From Azolla caroliniana (lineage: Eukaryota > Plantae > Polypodiophyta), in NCBI GenBank assembly GCA_043228905.1, contig JBHGNT010000005.1, positions 15,004,001 to 15,068,000 on the forward strand: 64,000 bases of DNA, in the 5' to 3' direction. Of this stretch, positions 2,564 through 47,479 are shown one piece after another. A program made the translations under genes and the position numbers. Each line of letters begins with the position of its first letter. Position 1 is the first letter of the stretch. Under the pieces are notes generated by a model that worked only from the letters and a program-made list of their open reading frames with translations, was not told the origin of the DNA and ran no database searches.

Positions 2564-4870
2564 CTAAGGAGTCAAAGTTGGGTCAGAATACATGCTACAT
2601 ATTGATACATAAGGGGATGGATCCTTGTCCTCGAGTTCCATCGCATATTCATATGCTTTTTTGCCTAGTTTCACATTGCCACACTTTCTAGAAGCATCCA
2701 ATACACATTGCCACATGACATGATCCGGATGTGAAACCATTTGGTTAGCCATATCCATCGCTCTTGCCAAGTGCCCAGCCTGACCAATGAGATTCACCAT
2801 GCATGTGTCATGTTCAAGCATTGGAGTCATACCATAATCTTTACTCATTACCTCGTAGTAGATTTGACCTTTGTCCAACATTCCCACATGGGTGCATGCA
2901 TTAAGAATACTAATAAATGTGACCATATCTGGCTGTTCACCCAATAGCTTCATCTTCTCAAAAATTCCGAAGGCATTTTCACTATCTCCTGACTGACTAT
3001 ATCCAGCAATAAGTGCATTCCATGTGATTACATCCCGGAATAAGAGCTTGTCAAATACTTCTTGAGCTTTTCCCAGAGCGCCACATTTCGCATACATGCC
3101 AATCAATGCATTTCCAACCACCAGATCTCTTTCTAAGAACCCTTTTCGGGCAATATCAATGTGGATTTCTTGACCCTTTTCTGTAGCTCCCAATGTACAA
3201 CAAGCCTTGAGCAGAGAGATGAGTGTGGCAGCATTTGGAGAGATATTTTCATCTTTCATTGTTTCAAAACTATTGAGAGCATCCTCACAACATCCATATT
3301 TCACATACCCGGCAATCATAGCTGTCCATGAGACCACATCTCTGCTGGGGAGCATTTCCAGTACTTCTCTTGCTTCTAATAGACATCCACAGTGAGCATA
3401 CATATCAATTAAAACATTTCCAATCAGACGTTCTTCTTCTGGCAAAAGAAATCCTTTTCCACATATCTCTGCATGTATTTTCCTGCCCTTGCCCACAGCT
3501 CCAATGCAGCCACATGCTTTCAGGCTGCAAACATATGTTACCAAACTTGGAGAAACACTTTCCGCTCTCATCCTTTCAAAAAACATCAATGCTTCCTTTA
3601 AATATTGGTATTCTAAATACGTCATAATGAGTGAAGTCCATGAGATAGCATCTTGGATCAGAAGCTTCTCAAAAACTTCTCGTGCTTTCAAGATTGAACC
3701 ACATTTTCCATACATATCAATCAATGCATTACACACTGGCAGGTTGATACCACCCTCTATGTAGCCTTTCCTAGCTGCCTCAGCATGAATTTCGATCCCC
3801 ATACGAATGTCTCTGACAGTGCTGCAAGCTTGAAGGATGCAAACAAGCGTGATCGCATTTGGATTAAACCCCTCTAATCTCATTTGCATGTAGCAATCCA
3901 ATGCATCTTCAGCATACTCCTGTCTTGCGTACCCTCCAATAAGTGTTGTCCATGTAATCACATCTTTTATTTGGAGCTTTTTAAGCACTTCATGTGCATT
4001 CAAAAGAGAACCACATTTAGCGTACATGTCTACAAGTGCATTGCCAATCACCAGGTGTCTTTCTAAGAAACCTTTCCGCGCGATCTCAGCATGCACTTCT
4101 TTGCCCTCCTCAATAGCTCCAAGCGCACCACAAACTTTAAGAATGTTAATGAATGTGAACATATCAGGACAGACTCCATTCATTTGCATTTTTCTGAAGC
4201 ATTTGAGGGCTTGCTCACACTCATTATGTTTCGAATACCCTGAAATCAATGCATTCCAAGAGAATACATCCTGAACAGGGAACTTATTGAAAATTTCACG
4301 TGCTTTCTCAAGGCATCCACACCTGGCATACATCTCAATCAATGCATTGCAAATGATCGCATTTTTTCCCAACAATTCTTGTTGTAAAATCAATGCATGT
4401 AGTTCTCTACCCTTACTGATGTCTTTAACACTCCCACAAGCCTTTAAGCAGCAAGTATATGTAATCGCATTAGGCTGAACATTCATACATTGCATATGAT
4501 AGAAACAGTCAAGGGCTTCCTTTCCATGCTCATAGTTAGCATATCCTGAAATGAGGGTATTCCAAGAGACCACATCTCGAGCAGGAAGTATGTCAAATAT
4601 CTGCTTGGCTTTCCCAAGCAAGTTGCATTTGGCATACATGTCTACCAAAGCGTTCCCCACATAAAGATCCTTTCTCAATAACCCCAGTTTATTTATCTCT
4701 CCATGCAATTTAGATCCTAAGTCTAGGTCCTTGAGTGAAGAACAAGCCTTCAGTAAGGTAACAATAGAGAACCTGTTCAGGCTTTGCTGGCTCTCTTGCA
4801 TTTTGTGGTATAGGAGAAGGGCATGTTTCAGGTGCCTCTGCTTCTTGTGTGAATTAATGCCTATGTTCAT
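2564..4870 (-). CDS. PLS-class pentatricopeptide repeat protein with truncated E extension and no DYW domain (candidate organellar RNA-editing specificity factor)
   Basis: Uninterrupted 768-aa ORF of repeated P-L-S triplets (six NAL[VI][DEG]MY.KCG-type motifs, DVVSWN, TF..LLKAC). Ends in S2/E-like VMWQCVLDASRKCGNVKLGKKAYEYAMELEDKDPSPYV and stops before any DYW domain. True start uncertain. Confidence 0.93.
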   Translation of the reverse strand: MNIGINSHKKQRHLKHALLLYHKMQESQQSLNRFSIVTLLKACSSLKDLDLGSKLHGEINKLGLLRKDLYVGNALVDMYAKCNLLGKAKQIFDILPARDVVSWNTLISGYANYEHGKEALDCFYHMQCMNVQPNAITYTCCLKACGSVKDISKGRELHALILQQELLGKNAIICNALIEMYARCGCLEKAREIFNKFPVQDVFSWNALISGYSKHNECEQALKCFRKMQMNGVCPDMFTFINILKVCGALGAIEEGKEVHAEIARKGFLERHLVIGNALVDMYAKCGSLLNAHEVLKKLQIKDVITWTTLIGGYARQEYAEDALDCYMQMRLEGFNPNAITLVCILQACSTVRDIRMGIEIHAEAARKGYIEGGINLPVCNALIDMYGKCGSILKAREVFEKLLIQDAISWTSLIMTYLEYQYLKEALMFFERMRAESVSPSLVTYVCSLKACGCIGAVGKGRKIHAEICGKGFLLPEEERLIGNVLIDMYAHCGCLLEAREVLEMLPSRDVVSWTAMIAGYVKYGCCEDALNSFETMKDENISPNAATLISLLKACCTLGATEKGQEIHIDIARKGFLERDLVVGNALIGMYAKCGALGKAQEVFDKLLFRDVITWNALIAGYSQSGDSENAFGIFEKMKLLGEQPDMVTFISILNACTHVGMLDKGQIYYEVMSKDYGMTPMLEHDTCMVNLIGQAGHLARAMDMANQMVSHPDHVMWQCVLDASRKCGNVKLGKKAYEYAMELEDKDPSPYVSICSMYSDPTLTP

Positions 4871-5198
4871 GTGAGCCGTCAGGTGACCCAGGTGGAAACA
4901 GAGGAGGAGGATGGGACATCAGTTTATGCACTGGTCTGAAGAGTTAAGATCCTGTACATGCTGTTCATCATCATCATCATCATCATCACCATCTTCTTCT
5001 TCTTCTTCGTCGTCGTCACCATCGCCATCATCTGCTTGACTCGGCATCATAATTCCCAACAAACTCTCTGGTTTTCGGTGTGGCAGAGAATCCCATGTCC
5101 AGACTCCACATACATACATAGTATGAAGGAAGGCCGTGCACACACACACACATACTCATGACTGAGTGAGCATTTTTCTTTGATCATACAAACAAACT

Positions 5199-24566: not shown

Positions 24567-25301
24567 CTCGACATAACTTTTGATTAGTTATTGTCAAAGT
24601 GAAACAAAAAGCTGACAAAATTTACTATTATGACTAGGGATTTTGCTTATGATCTATGCCTTTCTTTCTATTAGAGAAGTATGCAAATATAAGAATGAAA
24701 TGGTTGGAAAAGAAAGTATAGAGGGAGATGATATTTTGCTTATTCCAAAAGATTTCTCTTAAAACTCCTTTTTAACTAATATGGGAGTTTTTTCCCATTT
24801 GTTTGAAGCTTTTTTTTCAAATATTTGTTTTCTTTTCATTATTTCAAATGGAAGAAAAATAATGGGCTATTTATAAGAGAGCACAACAACAAATATTCAT
24901 GTACTATGTGTGGTGATGGAGATGTTGAGTTAATTGGATATTTTCATCAAAGACTCGTTGTGCTTAATTGCTTTTCTATATGATATCTTTGTATTTAAGG
25001 ATATGGTGCTTTCAACACTTGAGACTAGGCTTCACATCTAACTAGTTTTTATTTTGGTGTTCAATTATGCTAAGAATGCACCATCAAGGCTCTCATACCC
25101 TGAGTTTGTTTTGAGGCTAACTATCAAGGGAGGTCGAAGCATGCATTTCTTCCTATGATTGCCTTTTGTTCTATAAGTATGGATGGTCTTCATTCCTTTC
25201 ATGACTTTTTGGATTTGGAGGTTGACATTATTAGGAACATTTCTAAAGCCAAGTGGGTGTTTATTCATCGAATCCCACCCACTTTAATCTTCACTAACCG
25301 T

Positions 25302-26350
25302 TGTCGCGAAGATTCGCGCGCGCGCGTTACTTGGGTGGGACCACGGGGGTCTTGGACTAGGGAGTACTCAAGGGATAAATAATTAATTATTTATTTATTT
25401 TAAATCTTATAAATATAAAGCACTCTTCGAACCCACTCTACTAATCCTCACTCTACGAATCTTCACTCTACTAATCCTCATTCTATGAATCCTCACTCTA
25501 CGAATCCTCTCTCTACGAATCCTCACTCTATGAATCTTCACTCTATGAATCCTCTCTACGAACTCTCTCTACGAATCCTCACTCTACGAACTCTCTCTAC
25601 GAACTCTCTCTACGAACTCTCTCTACGAATCCTTTCTACGAACCCACTCTACGAATCCTCTCTTGGAACCCACTCTACGAACTCTCTCTACGAATCTAAG
25701 GGGACGATAACACAAACACGAATGCTTGTACGTCTTTATGAGGAGGAAAGGTGCATGGGCACGCCCGAAACGTTCCCTCGTCACAAGACGGCCGAACGTA
25801 CAAGGAAGACACGAACAAGAAAGAAAGAAAGAAGGAACACGAATGATATCGGCCAAAGGAGTAAATACGTGTTCGATTCCAACGCAAGAGGCCCCTTTAT
25901 AAATAGGGTTTGATTACAATAGCAACTTCTAGCTAACCATTGGCTCAATCAAAACATAAATACTAAATGACCTTAGAGACAAGAGCAAAACCGACCACAA
26001 CGAAGATAAACACACGAGCACCACCAAAATGCCAACCCCAACGAACCACGACCACCCGAACGGCAAGCACACGGGCTCGCAACGACGAACGAGGCTCGCA
26101 ACGACGAACGAGGCTCGCAACGTCGAACCAACGAAGCTTGGGCTCATGAGCACTTCGAGTGTCAACACAAAGAAGACGAGCACGTGGTGATGAGGGGATG
26201 AAGGGGTATGAAGAGATGAAGAGAAGTGGTGAAGAAGAAGATGAAGAACTCCGAAGGAAAAATGGCGATAGTCTCCTCCTCTTAAAATATCCTCCCAAAT
26301 GAGCCCCCCTCGACCTCCTTTTATAGGAAAAAAGGAAGAGGGGTCGCAAA
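25302..26350 (-). mobile_element. LTR-like fragment with 15-bp minisatellite and conserved stem-loop
   Basis: Left end TGTCGCG followed by GGGACCACGGGGGTCTTGGAC, identical to the motif in LTR 33667-34288. TATA-like boxes on minus near 25900 and 26320. Right boundary uncertain. Confidence 0.5.
25432..25696. repeat. 14-15-bp minisatellite (CTCTACGAATCCTCA), roughly 18 copies
   Basis: Seen directly. Confidence 0.9.
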
Positions 26351-27214
26351 TTTTGTCTTTAATGCAAAACGGAATAAAATTCCTTAAATCACGCTACATT
26401 GTAAGACTAGATTTAAACGGTGCACCTCTAACTAGAAGTCAATGTGACTATCCACTAGCCCATTAACTCTATTTTATATAATATATAATTCTATCTCTAC
26501 AAATTCATAGCTTGTATCCCCTCTACCTTTTATCTCTCCTCTCTCTTACTTTTTACATGAGCTTCTATACATCCTTTCCACCCGGGTTTTCTCACCATGG
26601 CCGAAAATCCTCATGACATCGTGTTTGTGGATTTTTATTATCACCTAACATTGTATTCATCTTTATTGGTGCTACATCATTAGGAGAATGCAAGGTCCTC
26701 ATTTCTACTTGTTGTAAAGGAAGGAGATTGATAAATAAATCATTGCTGTGTTGTAATATATTACTTTCCTCTCAACTAATGAATTATTGTTTGTTTGAAA
26801 CATTATTTGAACCGTAGGTATGTCATTATTATAGCAAGTTGGTTTTGCATGTGTTTGTTTGTTGCAAACTATATAATCTAAGGAAAATGTGTATTAGAAA
26901 GAGATATTGTATTGCTAATAGTGTGATTAATATGTATGGTAAATGTGGCTTGACCCATGTAGCACATATATGTTTGATAAGCTTTACATATTGAATTAGT
27001 CATATATTAATTTCTTCCCCGTTAAATAATGTTGTGATGTGAGAAGTTATTGAGCATTTGAAGGAACTTCTTGTAGTGATGGGGTATTCATGATAATTGT
27101 TGATGAAATTTTATAAAGTTTAAATATAGAATAACTATCAAACCAAATAATGAACTCTTGCGTCTTTATTAGTAAAAGAATATCTATGATTTAGGTGCAA
27201 ATAGACACGAGCCC

Positions 27215-44620: not shown

Positions 44621-45965
44621 TGTCGTGATGTTTTTGACACATAGTGTGAAACCACCCTCAAAAGAGAATAAAATAGTGGTCCAAATAAACTAATTTTCTT
44701 AAGTCAAGTATAGTAATAAATGAAAGGATAAAAAGTTAGAAAAGGTTTTCGAAAGTAGACAAAAATAAAGAAAAAGATGGGAAAAGAAAAGTAGTCGTGG
44801 ATATGAGCAAGGTCGAGTAAAAAGCTCATAATTTCCTAGTCAAATTTCCAAATTAGAAAAGAAAAGCTGCATAAGAAATCTAACCTAAAGAGCTTTCCAA
44901 GAATATATTGCATGTGAAATTTGAGGCTAGAAAATAGAAATAGTGAGGAAAAGAAAAGTCGACTCATATAGAAAAGGTTTTTTTAGGGGGAAAAGGCAAG
45001 CAATCCTAAACCTATAAATAAGAGCCTATTCTAGTGAAGAAAGGGGGGGAGGGAGAAGGAATGTGGAAGCTCTACTCAAATGGAAAGCGGAAGAAGAAGG
45101 ATCAACAACATCGAGTGGCATCATCAACAAAGAAACTCCTTCTATAGTCCACTCTCTTCGTTCCTCCACCTCTCTTCCCCCATTCCTTTATAAACAATCC
45201 TTCATATTCACATCCAACCCATTGTAACATGATTCTTATATTATAAAAGAATCTATTATATTGATATAAATTAATGTTTTCTTTCATCTACTTGTCTTAT
45301 GTGTAAATCTTGATTGTGCTTATTTGTTATCGTCATTTGTGCTTATTTGTTTGTGTGTCTTGTGACAAGGGAGCGTTTCAGGCTTGCCCATGCACCTCTC
45401 CTTTCACAAAGGCATTCAAACCTACGTGTCTTATATTTTATCTTCGTTTGTGCTTATTTTTTTGTGTGTCTTGTGACAAGGGAGTGTTTCGGGCTTGCCC
45501 ATGCACCTCTCCTTTCACAAAGGCATTCAAACTTACGTGTCTTGCGTGTTAGTGTAAATCGTGCTTGTGTGTCCGTGTGACTTGTGGCAAGGGAGCGTTC
45601 GGGCTTGCCCATGCAACTCTCCTTTCACAAAGGCGTTCGAAATTGTGTCTCTTGTATGTGAACCTTGCTTGTGTGTTCATGCGACTTGTGGTAAGGGAGC
45701 GTTCAAGCTTGCCCATGCACCTCTCTTTTCACAAAGGCGTTCGAAATTGTGTCTCCCGTGTGTAAACCTTGCTTGTGTGTTCACGTGTCTTATAACAAGG
45801 GAGCATTCGGGCTTGCCCATGCACCTCTCTTTTCACAAAGGCATTCGAAACTCTGTCTCTCGTGTGTGTGAGGAAGCCTTTTCCTTGTGTGTTCGCGTGT
45901 CTTGTAACAAGTGAGCGTTCGGGCTTGCCCATGCACCTCTCTTTTCACAAAGGCATTCGAAACTC
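44621..45965 (+). mobile_element. Truncated LTR-like insertion in the chromovirus integrase
   Basis: Begins TGTCGTGA right after PCTKAIT, has TATA CCTATAAATA at 45011, and ends in a stem-loop array before host integrase resumes (ELLMREVFRHHG). Confidence 0.75.
45355..45965 (+). repeat. Tandem array of six ~105-120-bp units, each with a ~60-nt stem-loop
   Basis: Core GTGTCTTGTGACAAGGGAGCGTTCGGGCTTGCCCATGCACCTCTCCTTTCACAAAGGCAT repeated six times. Confidence 0.92.
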
Positions 45966-47479
45966 CGAGTTACTCATGCGAGAGGTGTTTCGGCATCATG
46001 GTCCTCCTAATGATATTATCAATGATCGGGGTCCCCAGTTCATCTCAAAATTTTGGCGGTACATGTTCAAACTCTTACATACTTCTTGCAAACTCTCTTT
46101 CGGCTACCATCCAGAAACTAACGGACAAAGTGAGCTCACCAACCAAACAGTAGAACAATATCTTCGTTGTTTTGTCAGCTATCAACAAGATGATTGGATT
46201 AATCTATTACATTTGGCGGAATTTGCTTACAACAACTCAGAACATTCGTCTACTGGATATTCCCCATTTTTTGCAAACATTGGGCACCATCCTCGGACTA
46301 TGCTTGAGCATCCCGAACTCCCGACAAACCCGGCTGTTGAAGATCAGCTCACCTGACTCCAAGAAGTTCAAGATATCTTTTTGCACCATTTATGTGATGC
46401 TCAAAACACTCAGAAGAAGGTTGTCGACTGCCATCGACGTGATTCATCGACTACGTTTCAAGTGGGAGATCGAGTATGGCTTTTACAAGGTCGTATTAAA
46501 ACAACCCGACCTTGCTGCAAATTGGATTATCAACGTTTTGGCCCATATGTGATATCTGGTAAGATCAATGATGTGGCATTTCGCCTTGACCTTCCCCCTC
46601 GTATGCATCTTCACCCGGTCTTCCATGTTTCACTTTTGGAGCCGTACACAACCAGCTCTATTCCAGGCCGTCTTACATCTCCCCCACCTCCAATCGAAGT
46701 TTCGGATGGCTCCGAATATGAAGTTGCTGTCATTCTTAACTCCAAGATCGTTCGCAACAAATTCTATTGTCTTACATCTCCCCCTCCTCCAATCGAAGTT
46801 TCGGATGGCTCCGAATATGAAGTTATTGCCATTCTTGACTCCAAGATCGTTCGCAACAAAATCTATTATTTGGTTGACTAGTTAGGTTATACACCTAATG
46901 ATCGAACATGGGAACCTCTCGAGAATCTTGCTAATGCCTCTGAAATGGTTGATGCGTTTCACAACAAATATCCCCATAAGCCAAGTCTGAAATCTTGTCT
47001 TCCGACTAGTGGAACTCGTCTTCGAAAAGGGAGGATAATGTCAGGAAGACATACATTTTGCCCTTGCAAGGATTCGAGCCCACAACGTCTTGGTCTTTAT
47101 GTTAGACCTTTAACCATTATAATAAACATATATGATGTATAGTTATAATAAATATATTTTTAGTTATTACAAGATAATTAGAGTATTCTAGAATGTTCTA
47201 GGATATTCCATGATTATATTAAATATCATAAATATCTGAAATATTCTAGAACATTCTAGAATACTCCATAAGGACCTATAAATAGGTGTCTATTCATTCA
47301 TCACGACTCATTCGGTTCAACACCAGTTTGTAGCCCCTTAGCCTACTCTTTGTAATCCTTGCTCTCTTATAATATAAACTCTCTTTCCATTTCTAGTGTT
47401 CTCTCTCTCTATATGTATATACCTTCTATTATCATCTTATCTTTCTCTCTCCTATTCTCAAGTCTCAACACTCTTGACG

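What the first reader, a model, noticed from the sequence alone, without database searches (positions are those of the whole stretch)
25731..25790. Single diverged copy of the same stem-loop in another LTR-like element shows compensatory changes
Seen: the minus strand reads CGTCTTGTGACGAGGGAACGTTTCGGGCGTGCCCATGCACCTTTCCTCCTCATAAAGACG. Compared with the 45.4-kb copies, AAGGGAG/CTCCTT becomes GAGGGAA/TTCCTC (two double substitutions) and TGTCTT/AAGGCA becomes CGTCTT/AAGACG (one double substitution plus G.U to A-U). The internal-loop bases CGTTTC and ATGCACCT are invariant. The surrounding sequence shows no obvious similarity. Inference: both structure and loop sequence are under selection across element families.
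Basis: partly seen in the sequence, partly recalled or inferred. Interest (0 to 1): 0.7.

Follow-up and report, generated by a model that had tools for sequence, protein, structure and literature searches.

The report
Shared tandem repeat in retrotransposon LTRs
The hairpin is one unit of a 105-base tandem repeat in the terminal repeats of two plant jumping-gene families; its inner sequence is conserved between them but its base-pairing shows no real covariation, so it is likely a protein-binding DNA control module rather than a new structured RNA.

Summary
The 60-nt sequence is at the stated place. It is one unit of a ~105-bp tandem array in the 3' half of the LTRs of two Ty3/Gypsy families (A at 25.3-26.6 kb, B at 44.6-46.0 kb) that have Phygy hallmarks: 4-bp NCGN target duplication, tRNA-Trp primer site, ~8 kb. 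The core has 787 exact matches genome-wide. A arrays hold 0-12 units, so the single copy is a subfamily trait. A and B are not sisters on an RT tree, and other sampled families lack the unit. The inner 37 nt are conserved between families (identity 0.81; linker 0.56, shuffled 0.48), so sequence constraint is likely. The structure claim fails. One 'compensatory' pair is private to this copy (1 of 352). The other two change CpG sites at three of four positions. Recurrent non-CpG variants break pairs 10 times and keep them 5 times. CGTTTC is not invariant (61 of 194; 28 of 214). The best-kept strand holds CATGCA, an RY box that clusters before the TATA box in several unit-less relatives. Best reading: a tandem DNA cis-regulatory module (0.45); leader RNA hairpin 0.3. 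No earlier scan note on this unit came up.

The parts
25731..25790 (-). 60-nt imperfect inverted repeat, the conserved part of one ~105-bp tandem unit (family A type)
25749..25760 (-). best-conserved strand of the unit, holding the RY hexamer CATGCA at 25752-25757
   Evidence: 0-7% non-modal per position in 194 A and 214 B units
25302..26618 (-). solo LTR of Ty3/Gypsy family A (TG...CA); flanked by a 4-bp duplication matching at 3 of 4 (25298-25301, 26619-26622)
25421..25696 (-). 13/15-bp tandem repeat that follows the single unit in this subfamily, where other A copies have more 105-bp units
25892..25922 (-). TGTAA plus AT-rich block upstream of the array, also seen before B-type arrays; predicted poly(A) signal or second TATA
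   Evidence: function inferred
26314..26327 (-). TATA-like box of the family A LTR (predicted promoter)
26400..26462 (-). tRNA-like (A-box/B-box-like) stretch in the 5' part of the family A LTR; limits approximate
   Evidence: (profile hit E 5e-9 in another A LTR); not called by ARAGORN in four LTR loci
44621..45965 (+). 3'-truncated LTR of family B, inserted in the integrase region of another Gypsy element
45356..45955 (+). array of six family B units, spacing 111, 110, 104, 104, 112
45011..45022 (+). TATA-like box of the family B LTR; TGTAA block at 45222 and AT-rich signal at 45240 lie between it and the array

Best explanation
The hairpin is one unit of a ~105-bp tandem array in the 3' half of the LTRs of two Phygy-like Ty3/Gypsy families, and it likely works as a repeated DNA-level control module whose constrained strand carries an RY box (CATGCA) predicted to bind a host B3-domain factor of the ABI3/FUS3/VAL type. 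Shown: the array, its host elements, copy number 0-12, conservation of the inner 37 nt between two non-sister families, and the lopsided conservation (3' strand kept, 5' loop strand free). Inferred: the array lies downstream of the start site (R or more likely U5); it is copied with the LTR and changes copy number by slippage or template switching; bound factor tunes LTR transcription or chromatin in proportion to unit number; it supplies the RY sites that several unit-less relatives carry as a cluster before the TATA box; and the two families share it by old descent with losses or by an old swap of this LTR block. The hairpin can form in the transcript but is not shown to be selected.
For: Array in both families, periods 105-106 (A) and 104-111 (B). 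Inner core 0.81 vs linker 0.56 (shuffled 0.48) between families. Segment ATGCAC 2.7% (A) and 2.3% (B) non-modal vs 15% and 20% for CGTTTC. The 3' strand is kept in the recurrent last unit of B, where pairs 3, 4, 12 and 18 are paired in only 22-30% of 27 units. CATGCA: 46 found vs 10.6 expected in 16 unit-less LTRs, rank 1 of 2080 hexamers (order-2 model; ranks 4 and 5 at orders 1 and 3); clusters of 5-8 in 5 of 16, including both sampled LTRs of B's sister group, while A and B have 1 each before the array. CATGCA is bound by B3 factors and occurs in a VAL1-bound 5'UTR (PMC12902250, passages). Tandem repeats in retrotransposon UTRs are arrays of protein sites with enhancer or insulator function in Drosophila (PMC7168160, passages).
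Against: No binding, chromatin or expression data. The conserved block (about 37 nt, both arms of the stem) is far longer than a 6-bp site. CATGCA is already 2.1- to 2.6-fold enriched in background DNA of this genome, and 6 of 16 unit-less LTRs have none, most of them among A's nearer relatives, so RY sites are not needed by all families. The array lies downstream of both TATA-like boxes, unlike plant U3 enhancer arrays. All five substitutions between the commonest A and B units at paired positions keep pairing, and the central pairs 13-17 never break recurrently. One A LTR has no unit (L014). The RY link was noticed after the fact.
Confidence: 0.45

Rival explanations
1. The unit is a repeated RNA hairpin in the 5' leader that is read by a protein (Gag or a host RNA-binding protein) through its 3' loop strand and serves packaging, dimerisation, export or translation control.
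For: Commonest units fold with z -2.5 and -2.2 as sense RNA, weakly as DNA (z -0.4). Two double changes and one wobble change separate the families, all keeping pairs. Pairs 13-17 never break recurrently, and the apical 3-bp stem breaks recurrently only by G>A at its first two G. The array is downstream of the TATA-like box, so it is predicted to be transcribed. The apical 10-mer is nearly self-complementary (seen in the sequence).
Against: No covariation beyond controls. Recurrent non-CpG variants: 10 break, 5 keep; transitions 5 and 5. Middle B units pair at 3-57 in 32% and at 9-50 in 69% of 129. The antisense strand folds nearly as well. No structural relative in other families by covariance model; no Rfam match.
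Confidence: 0.3
2. The unit has no function; it is a tandem repeat shared by descent or recombination whose core looks conserved because the GT-rich linker slips faster and arrays are homogenised.
For: Most sampled families lack it. Copy number falls to 1 or 0, with an unrelated 13/15-bp repeat in its place. The linker is low-complexity. Tandem repeats inside plant LTR elements are common (PMC6317226, passage).
Against: About 2 fixed differences in 37 nt between families whose linkers are near shuffled identity and whose RT third positions are 0.43 identical; binomial P 3e-4 at 30% and 0.013 at 20% site divergence, window chosen after the fact. The core is also kept in diverged subfamilies and in metagenome contigs.
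Confidence: 0.15
3. The array acts in 3'-end formation: GU-rich linkers as downstream poly(A) elements, with the hairpins slowing polymerase or masking the 5' LTR signal.
For: The array begins about 100-135 nt after a TGTAA plus AT-rich block in A and B. GT-rich stretches mark the start of U5 in LTR models (PMC3601003, passages).
Against: This predicts conserved GU-rich linkers, whereas the core is the conserved part. No 3'-end data.
Confidence: 0.1

Closest known systems
Phygy non-chromovirus Ty3/gypsy lineage (Neumann et al. 2019, PMC6317226; passages and supplementary table row)
   Same: 4-bp NCGN target duplication, tRNA-Trp primer site, length near the 7.7-10 kb range, short internal region filled by gag-pol.
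   Different: Described there as specific to Physcomitrella; no LTR tandem unit came up in the passages read. RT placement against Phygy references was not tested.
Palindrome-rich repeat region of maize Sirevirus LTRs (Bousios et al. 2016, PMC4728375; abstract and section 16)
   Same: Few tandem hairpin-forming repeats in the LTR, variable in number, the only point of similarity between LTRs of different families; LTR region swapping proposed.
   Different: Ty1/copia, in the cis-regulatory part of the LTR, and sequence reported as not conserved between families; here Ty3/Gypsy, downstream of the TATA-like box, with the inner sequence conserved.
5'UTR tandem arrays of Drosophila copia, gypsy and ZAM (review PMC7168160; passages)
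   Same: Tandem repeats downstream of the start site acting as arrays of protein-binding sites, potency scaling with number (gypsy).
   Different: Animal elements, arrays in the UTR rather than inside the LTR, with known proteins; here no protein is shown.
RY/Sph element bound by B3-domain factors VAL1/2, ABI3 (PMC12902250; passages)
   Same: CATGCA hexamer, can lie in a 5'UTR.
   Different: Known from host genes; here in retrotransposon LTRs and binding untested.

Membership tests
Phygy (host elements) | 4-bp target site duplication with NCGN preference | tested here: met
   16 of 17 solo LTRs match at 3 or 4 of 4, 0 of 17 fit a 5-bp duplication, 15 of 17 right flanks are NCG
Phygy (host elements) | PBS complementary to tRNA-Trp | tested here: met
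   PBS follows A and B LTRs and matches the 3' end of ARAGORN-called tRNA-Trp(CCA) genes in 3 of 3 loci
Phygy (host elements) | short element (7.7-10 kb) with gag-pol filling the internal region, no extra ORF | tested here: met
   two A elements have 5.64 kb between PBS and 3' LTR with LTRs of 1.3-1.8 kb; RT, RNase H, integrase in gypsy order; no intact B element examined
Phygy (host elements) | no chromodomain, no archaeal RNase H | tested here: inconclusive
   no such Pfam hit in frames of two decayed A copies, but frames are broken
Phygy (host elements) | RT/RH/INT phylogenetic placement with Phygy references | not testable with these tools
   no reference set held; tree has only this genome's elements
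   z -2.2 to -3.3 for the window copy and commonest units; later B copies z -0.25 to -1.5
Known Rfam families, including ribozymes | covariance-model match | tested here: not met
   0 at gathering score in the window; none over the array at E<=5 other than a weak lncRNA-region match far below its cut-off
RY-box enhancer/silencer | CATGCA present and conserved | tested here: met
   169 of 194 A and 194 of 214 B units
RY-box enhancer/silencer | binding by a B3-domain factor and effect on transcription | not testable with these tools
   needs EMSA, DAP-seq or reporter

The most novel reading that the evidence does not exclude
Phygy-like retrotransposons of this plant tap the host ABI3/VAL (RY-box) programme, some through RY clusters before the TATA box and two families through a portable, copy-number-variable module downstream of the start site that was exchanged between non-sister families and may double as a leader RNA hairpin.
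Probability: 0.25. Interest if true: 0.55.

Novelty: new member of a known kind. Interest (0 to 1): 0.3.

Why it matters
Cis-elements of LTRs in non-flowering plants are little described. A unit that is conserved between two families whose LTRs otherwise do not align, and that varies from 0 to 12 copies, gives a ready test of how repeat number tunes an element, and of whether LTR blocks move between families. If the RY reading holds, it would tie retrotransposon activity to the ABI3/VAL developmental programme. The case is also a clear example of CpG decay imitating compensatory change. It is not evidence for a new structured RNA class.

Tried and rejected
Rfam: nothing. Hammerhead, hairpin, pistol and twister resemblance: considered from recall only; key residues or topology did not fit by eye; no call beyond Rfam. 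Pairing of the core with the tRNA-Trp primer: 25% of 2000 shuffles pair as well. Origin of the core from the tRNA-like stretch in related LTRs (shared 8-mer): profile hits E 5.7-9.6. Further families with the core: pattern with altered 3' context gave 23 hits, 20 A- or B-type by eye, 3 unrelated; profile and covariance-model scans of about 40 loci of other families found only A or B LTRs. Viral contigs: 0. Expression: no RNA holder listed; two short contigs under 90% alike from a run only guessed to be RNA; no verdict. PMC7466625 (passages) does not mention Phygy. Paper searches showed no listing that describes this unit; most hits were seen as listings only, and the library lacks most subscription journals. 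Host clade was not determined.

Full report
Observation. The minus strand of 25731-25790 reads as quoted and matches six copies at 45356-45955. The loop pattern occurs twice in the window against 0.01 expected. The copy folds as a hairpin (z -3.3 sense, -3.0 antisense); five B copies gave sense z from -0.25 to -2.75. A 23-place core pattern has 787 exact matches in the 523-Mb genome, control 0.

Host elements. The finding lies in a solo LTR at 25302-26618 (minus; family A) and the array in a 3'-truncated LTR at 44621 to about 45965 (family B). Both families end TG...CA, have 4-bp duplications centred on CG (16 of 17 solo LTRs match at 3 or 4 of 4), and are followed by a primer site complementary to tRNA-Trp. 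Two A elements have a 5.64-kb internal region with gypsy-order RT, RNase H and integrase. These features match the Phygy row of PMC6317226 (4 bp NCGN, tRNA-Trp 81%, 7.7-10 kb; passages and supplement). Placement against Phygy references could not be run. Earlier AI notes call the host a fern; I did not check this.

The unit. The hairpin is the conserved part of a tandem unit of 105-106 bp in A and 104-111 bp in B. Thirty A loci hold 0-12 units and thirty B loci 5-12; the loci most like the window's copy hold one unit, and L014 none. The array lies downstream of a TATA-like box and about 100-135 nt after a TGTAA plus AT-rich block that A shares with B-type LTRs. By analogy with LTR models (PMC3601003, passages) I infer R or U5; no transcript ends were available.

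Distribution. The primer site has 3146 matches and about 20 LTR-end types by eye. In 46 upstream regions from 40 loci, only an A LTR and a nested B LTR held the unit. A covariance model over 46 sources found only window copies and A or B LTRs below E 0.1. Of 32 metagenome stretches, 29 come from one series of assemblies; 89 units were taken from them and 26 of the 29 match non-array parts of A or B; the other 3 of 32 are partial matches at E 0.13-1.7. On an RT tree of 35 rows, B is sister to a unit-less family (98/96) and A groups with other unit-less families (84/72); the label needs 2 changes. Holding A and B together is rejected marginally (p-AU 0.044, 9 vs 23 rows, after dropping the outgroup, one long row and one identical row). 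B RT copies were assigned by 92-94% identity to the internal region behind a B LTR. Descent with losses and exchange of an LTR block are both open.

Sequence constraint. Random A-B unit pairs are 0.81 identical over the inner 37 nt, 0.68 over the outer stem and 0.56 over the linker (shuffled 0.48); within families the core is 0.86-0.89. RT codon positions A-B are 0.83, 0.90 and 0.43. Outside the array the two LTRs do not align. Constraint on the core is therefore likely, though the window was chosen after the fact.

Structure test. In units from loci found by LTR-wide searches (194 A, 214 B), double changes in A equal the independence expectation at every pair. In B only the terminal pair exceeds it (69 vs 38.7), a CpG pair that follows array position. 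The window's inner double change is unique among 352 A units. Between families two pairs change on both sides, and three of those four bases lie in CpG in A. On 22 distinct recurrent units, 2 pairs have double changes vs 1.5 shuffled (262 of 500) and the covariation score is 0.136 vs 0.125 (37 of 500); cells with double changes are 9 vs 4.1 (2 of 500), which counts inherited changes many times. RNAalifold finds 0 of 14. Variants at 5% or more outside CpG keep pairing 5 times and break it 10 times. In favour of structure, pairs 13-17 never break recurrently and all five A-B substitutions at paired sites keep pairing.

Asymmetry. CGTTTC is 15% (A) and 20% (B) non-modal per site; ATGCAC is 2.7% and 2.3%. 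The recurrent last unit of B rewrites the 5' strand and loses pairs 3, 4, 12 and 18 in 70-78% of 27 units, but keeps the 3' strand. This points to a sequence read on one strand, in DNA or in RNA.

RY link. The kept strand holds CATGCA, the RY motif of B3-domain factors (PMC12902250, passages). In 16 unit-less LTRs it occurs 46 times vs 5.9, 10.6 and 23.0 expected under order-1, -2 and -3 models (ranks 4, 1 and 5 of 2080). Five of 16 have clusters of 5-8; in three of these a TATA box was detected and the cluster lies within 300 nt before it. Six of 16 have none. Background enrichment is 2.1- to 2.6-fold. LTR starts were set by a script and some may be cut short. A and B have one site each before the array. 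This is suggestive, not a test of binding.

Mechanism. I commit to a tandem DNA control module with an RY site (0.45), ahead of a leader RNA hairpin (0.3), neutral repeat (0.15) and a 3'-end role (0.1); the first two can both hold. Precedents are Sirevirus LTR palindromes (PMC4728375, abstract and section 16) and Drosophila 5'UTR arrays (PMC7168160, passages).

Novelty. Ten paper searches and four look-ups in earlier findings gave no description of this unit; most papers were seen as listings only. It is a new member of a known kind, tandem hairpin-like cis-repeats in LTRs. Interest 0.3.

Noticed in passing
last 55 nt of LTRs upstream of the tRNA-Trp primer site, loci L103-L142: 21 of 46 LTR ends hold a 7-8-nt exact complement to the part of tRNA-Trp left free after primer-site annealing (nt 45-55 or 2-8), against 1 of 46 in a control stretch (copies of one family are not independent). 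It looks like a U5-T-arm primer activation contact of the kind recalled for retroviruses.
   Followed up: partly
window 26400-26462 (-); L104, L105, L109, L116, L125, L127, L129, L130, L132, L136-L138, L142: A tRNA-like stretch with A-box and B-box-like parts sits in the 5' part of LTRs of several Phygy-like families, antisense in most and sense in family A. Not called by ARAGORN in four loci. Possible Pol III or TFIIIC element.
   Followed up: partly
L129, L130, L142, L107, L115 LTRs: Clusters of 5-8 CATGCA/TGCATG sites within about 100-250 nt, before the TATA box where one was detected.
   Followed up: partly
window 25869-25880 (-): Family A LTRs hold a 12-nt exact complement to the tRNA-Trp T arm about 85 nt upstream of the array.
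   Followed up: no
genome-wide: At least 3146 tRNA-Trp primer sites in about 20 families with Phygy hallmarks; if the host is a fern, as unchecked earlier notes say, this would widen a lineage described from one moss.
   Followed up: partly
G000:C8:17.80-17.82 Mb and C16:4.99-5.11 Mb: Runs of matches to the tRNA-Trp 3' end, at about 1.2-kb spacing on C8: likely tandem tRNA gene arrays.
   Followed up: no
window 2564-4918 (-): 784-aa PPR reading frame with 306/312-nt periodicity.
   Followed up: no
window 47060-47120: The LTR of the Gypsy element that hosts the B insertion seems by eye to hold an antisense tRNA-like stretch too; the profile did not detect it.
   Followed up: partly
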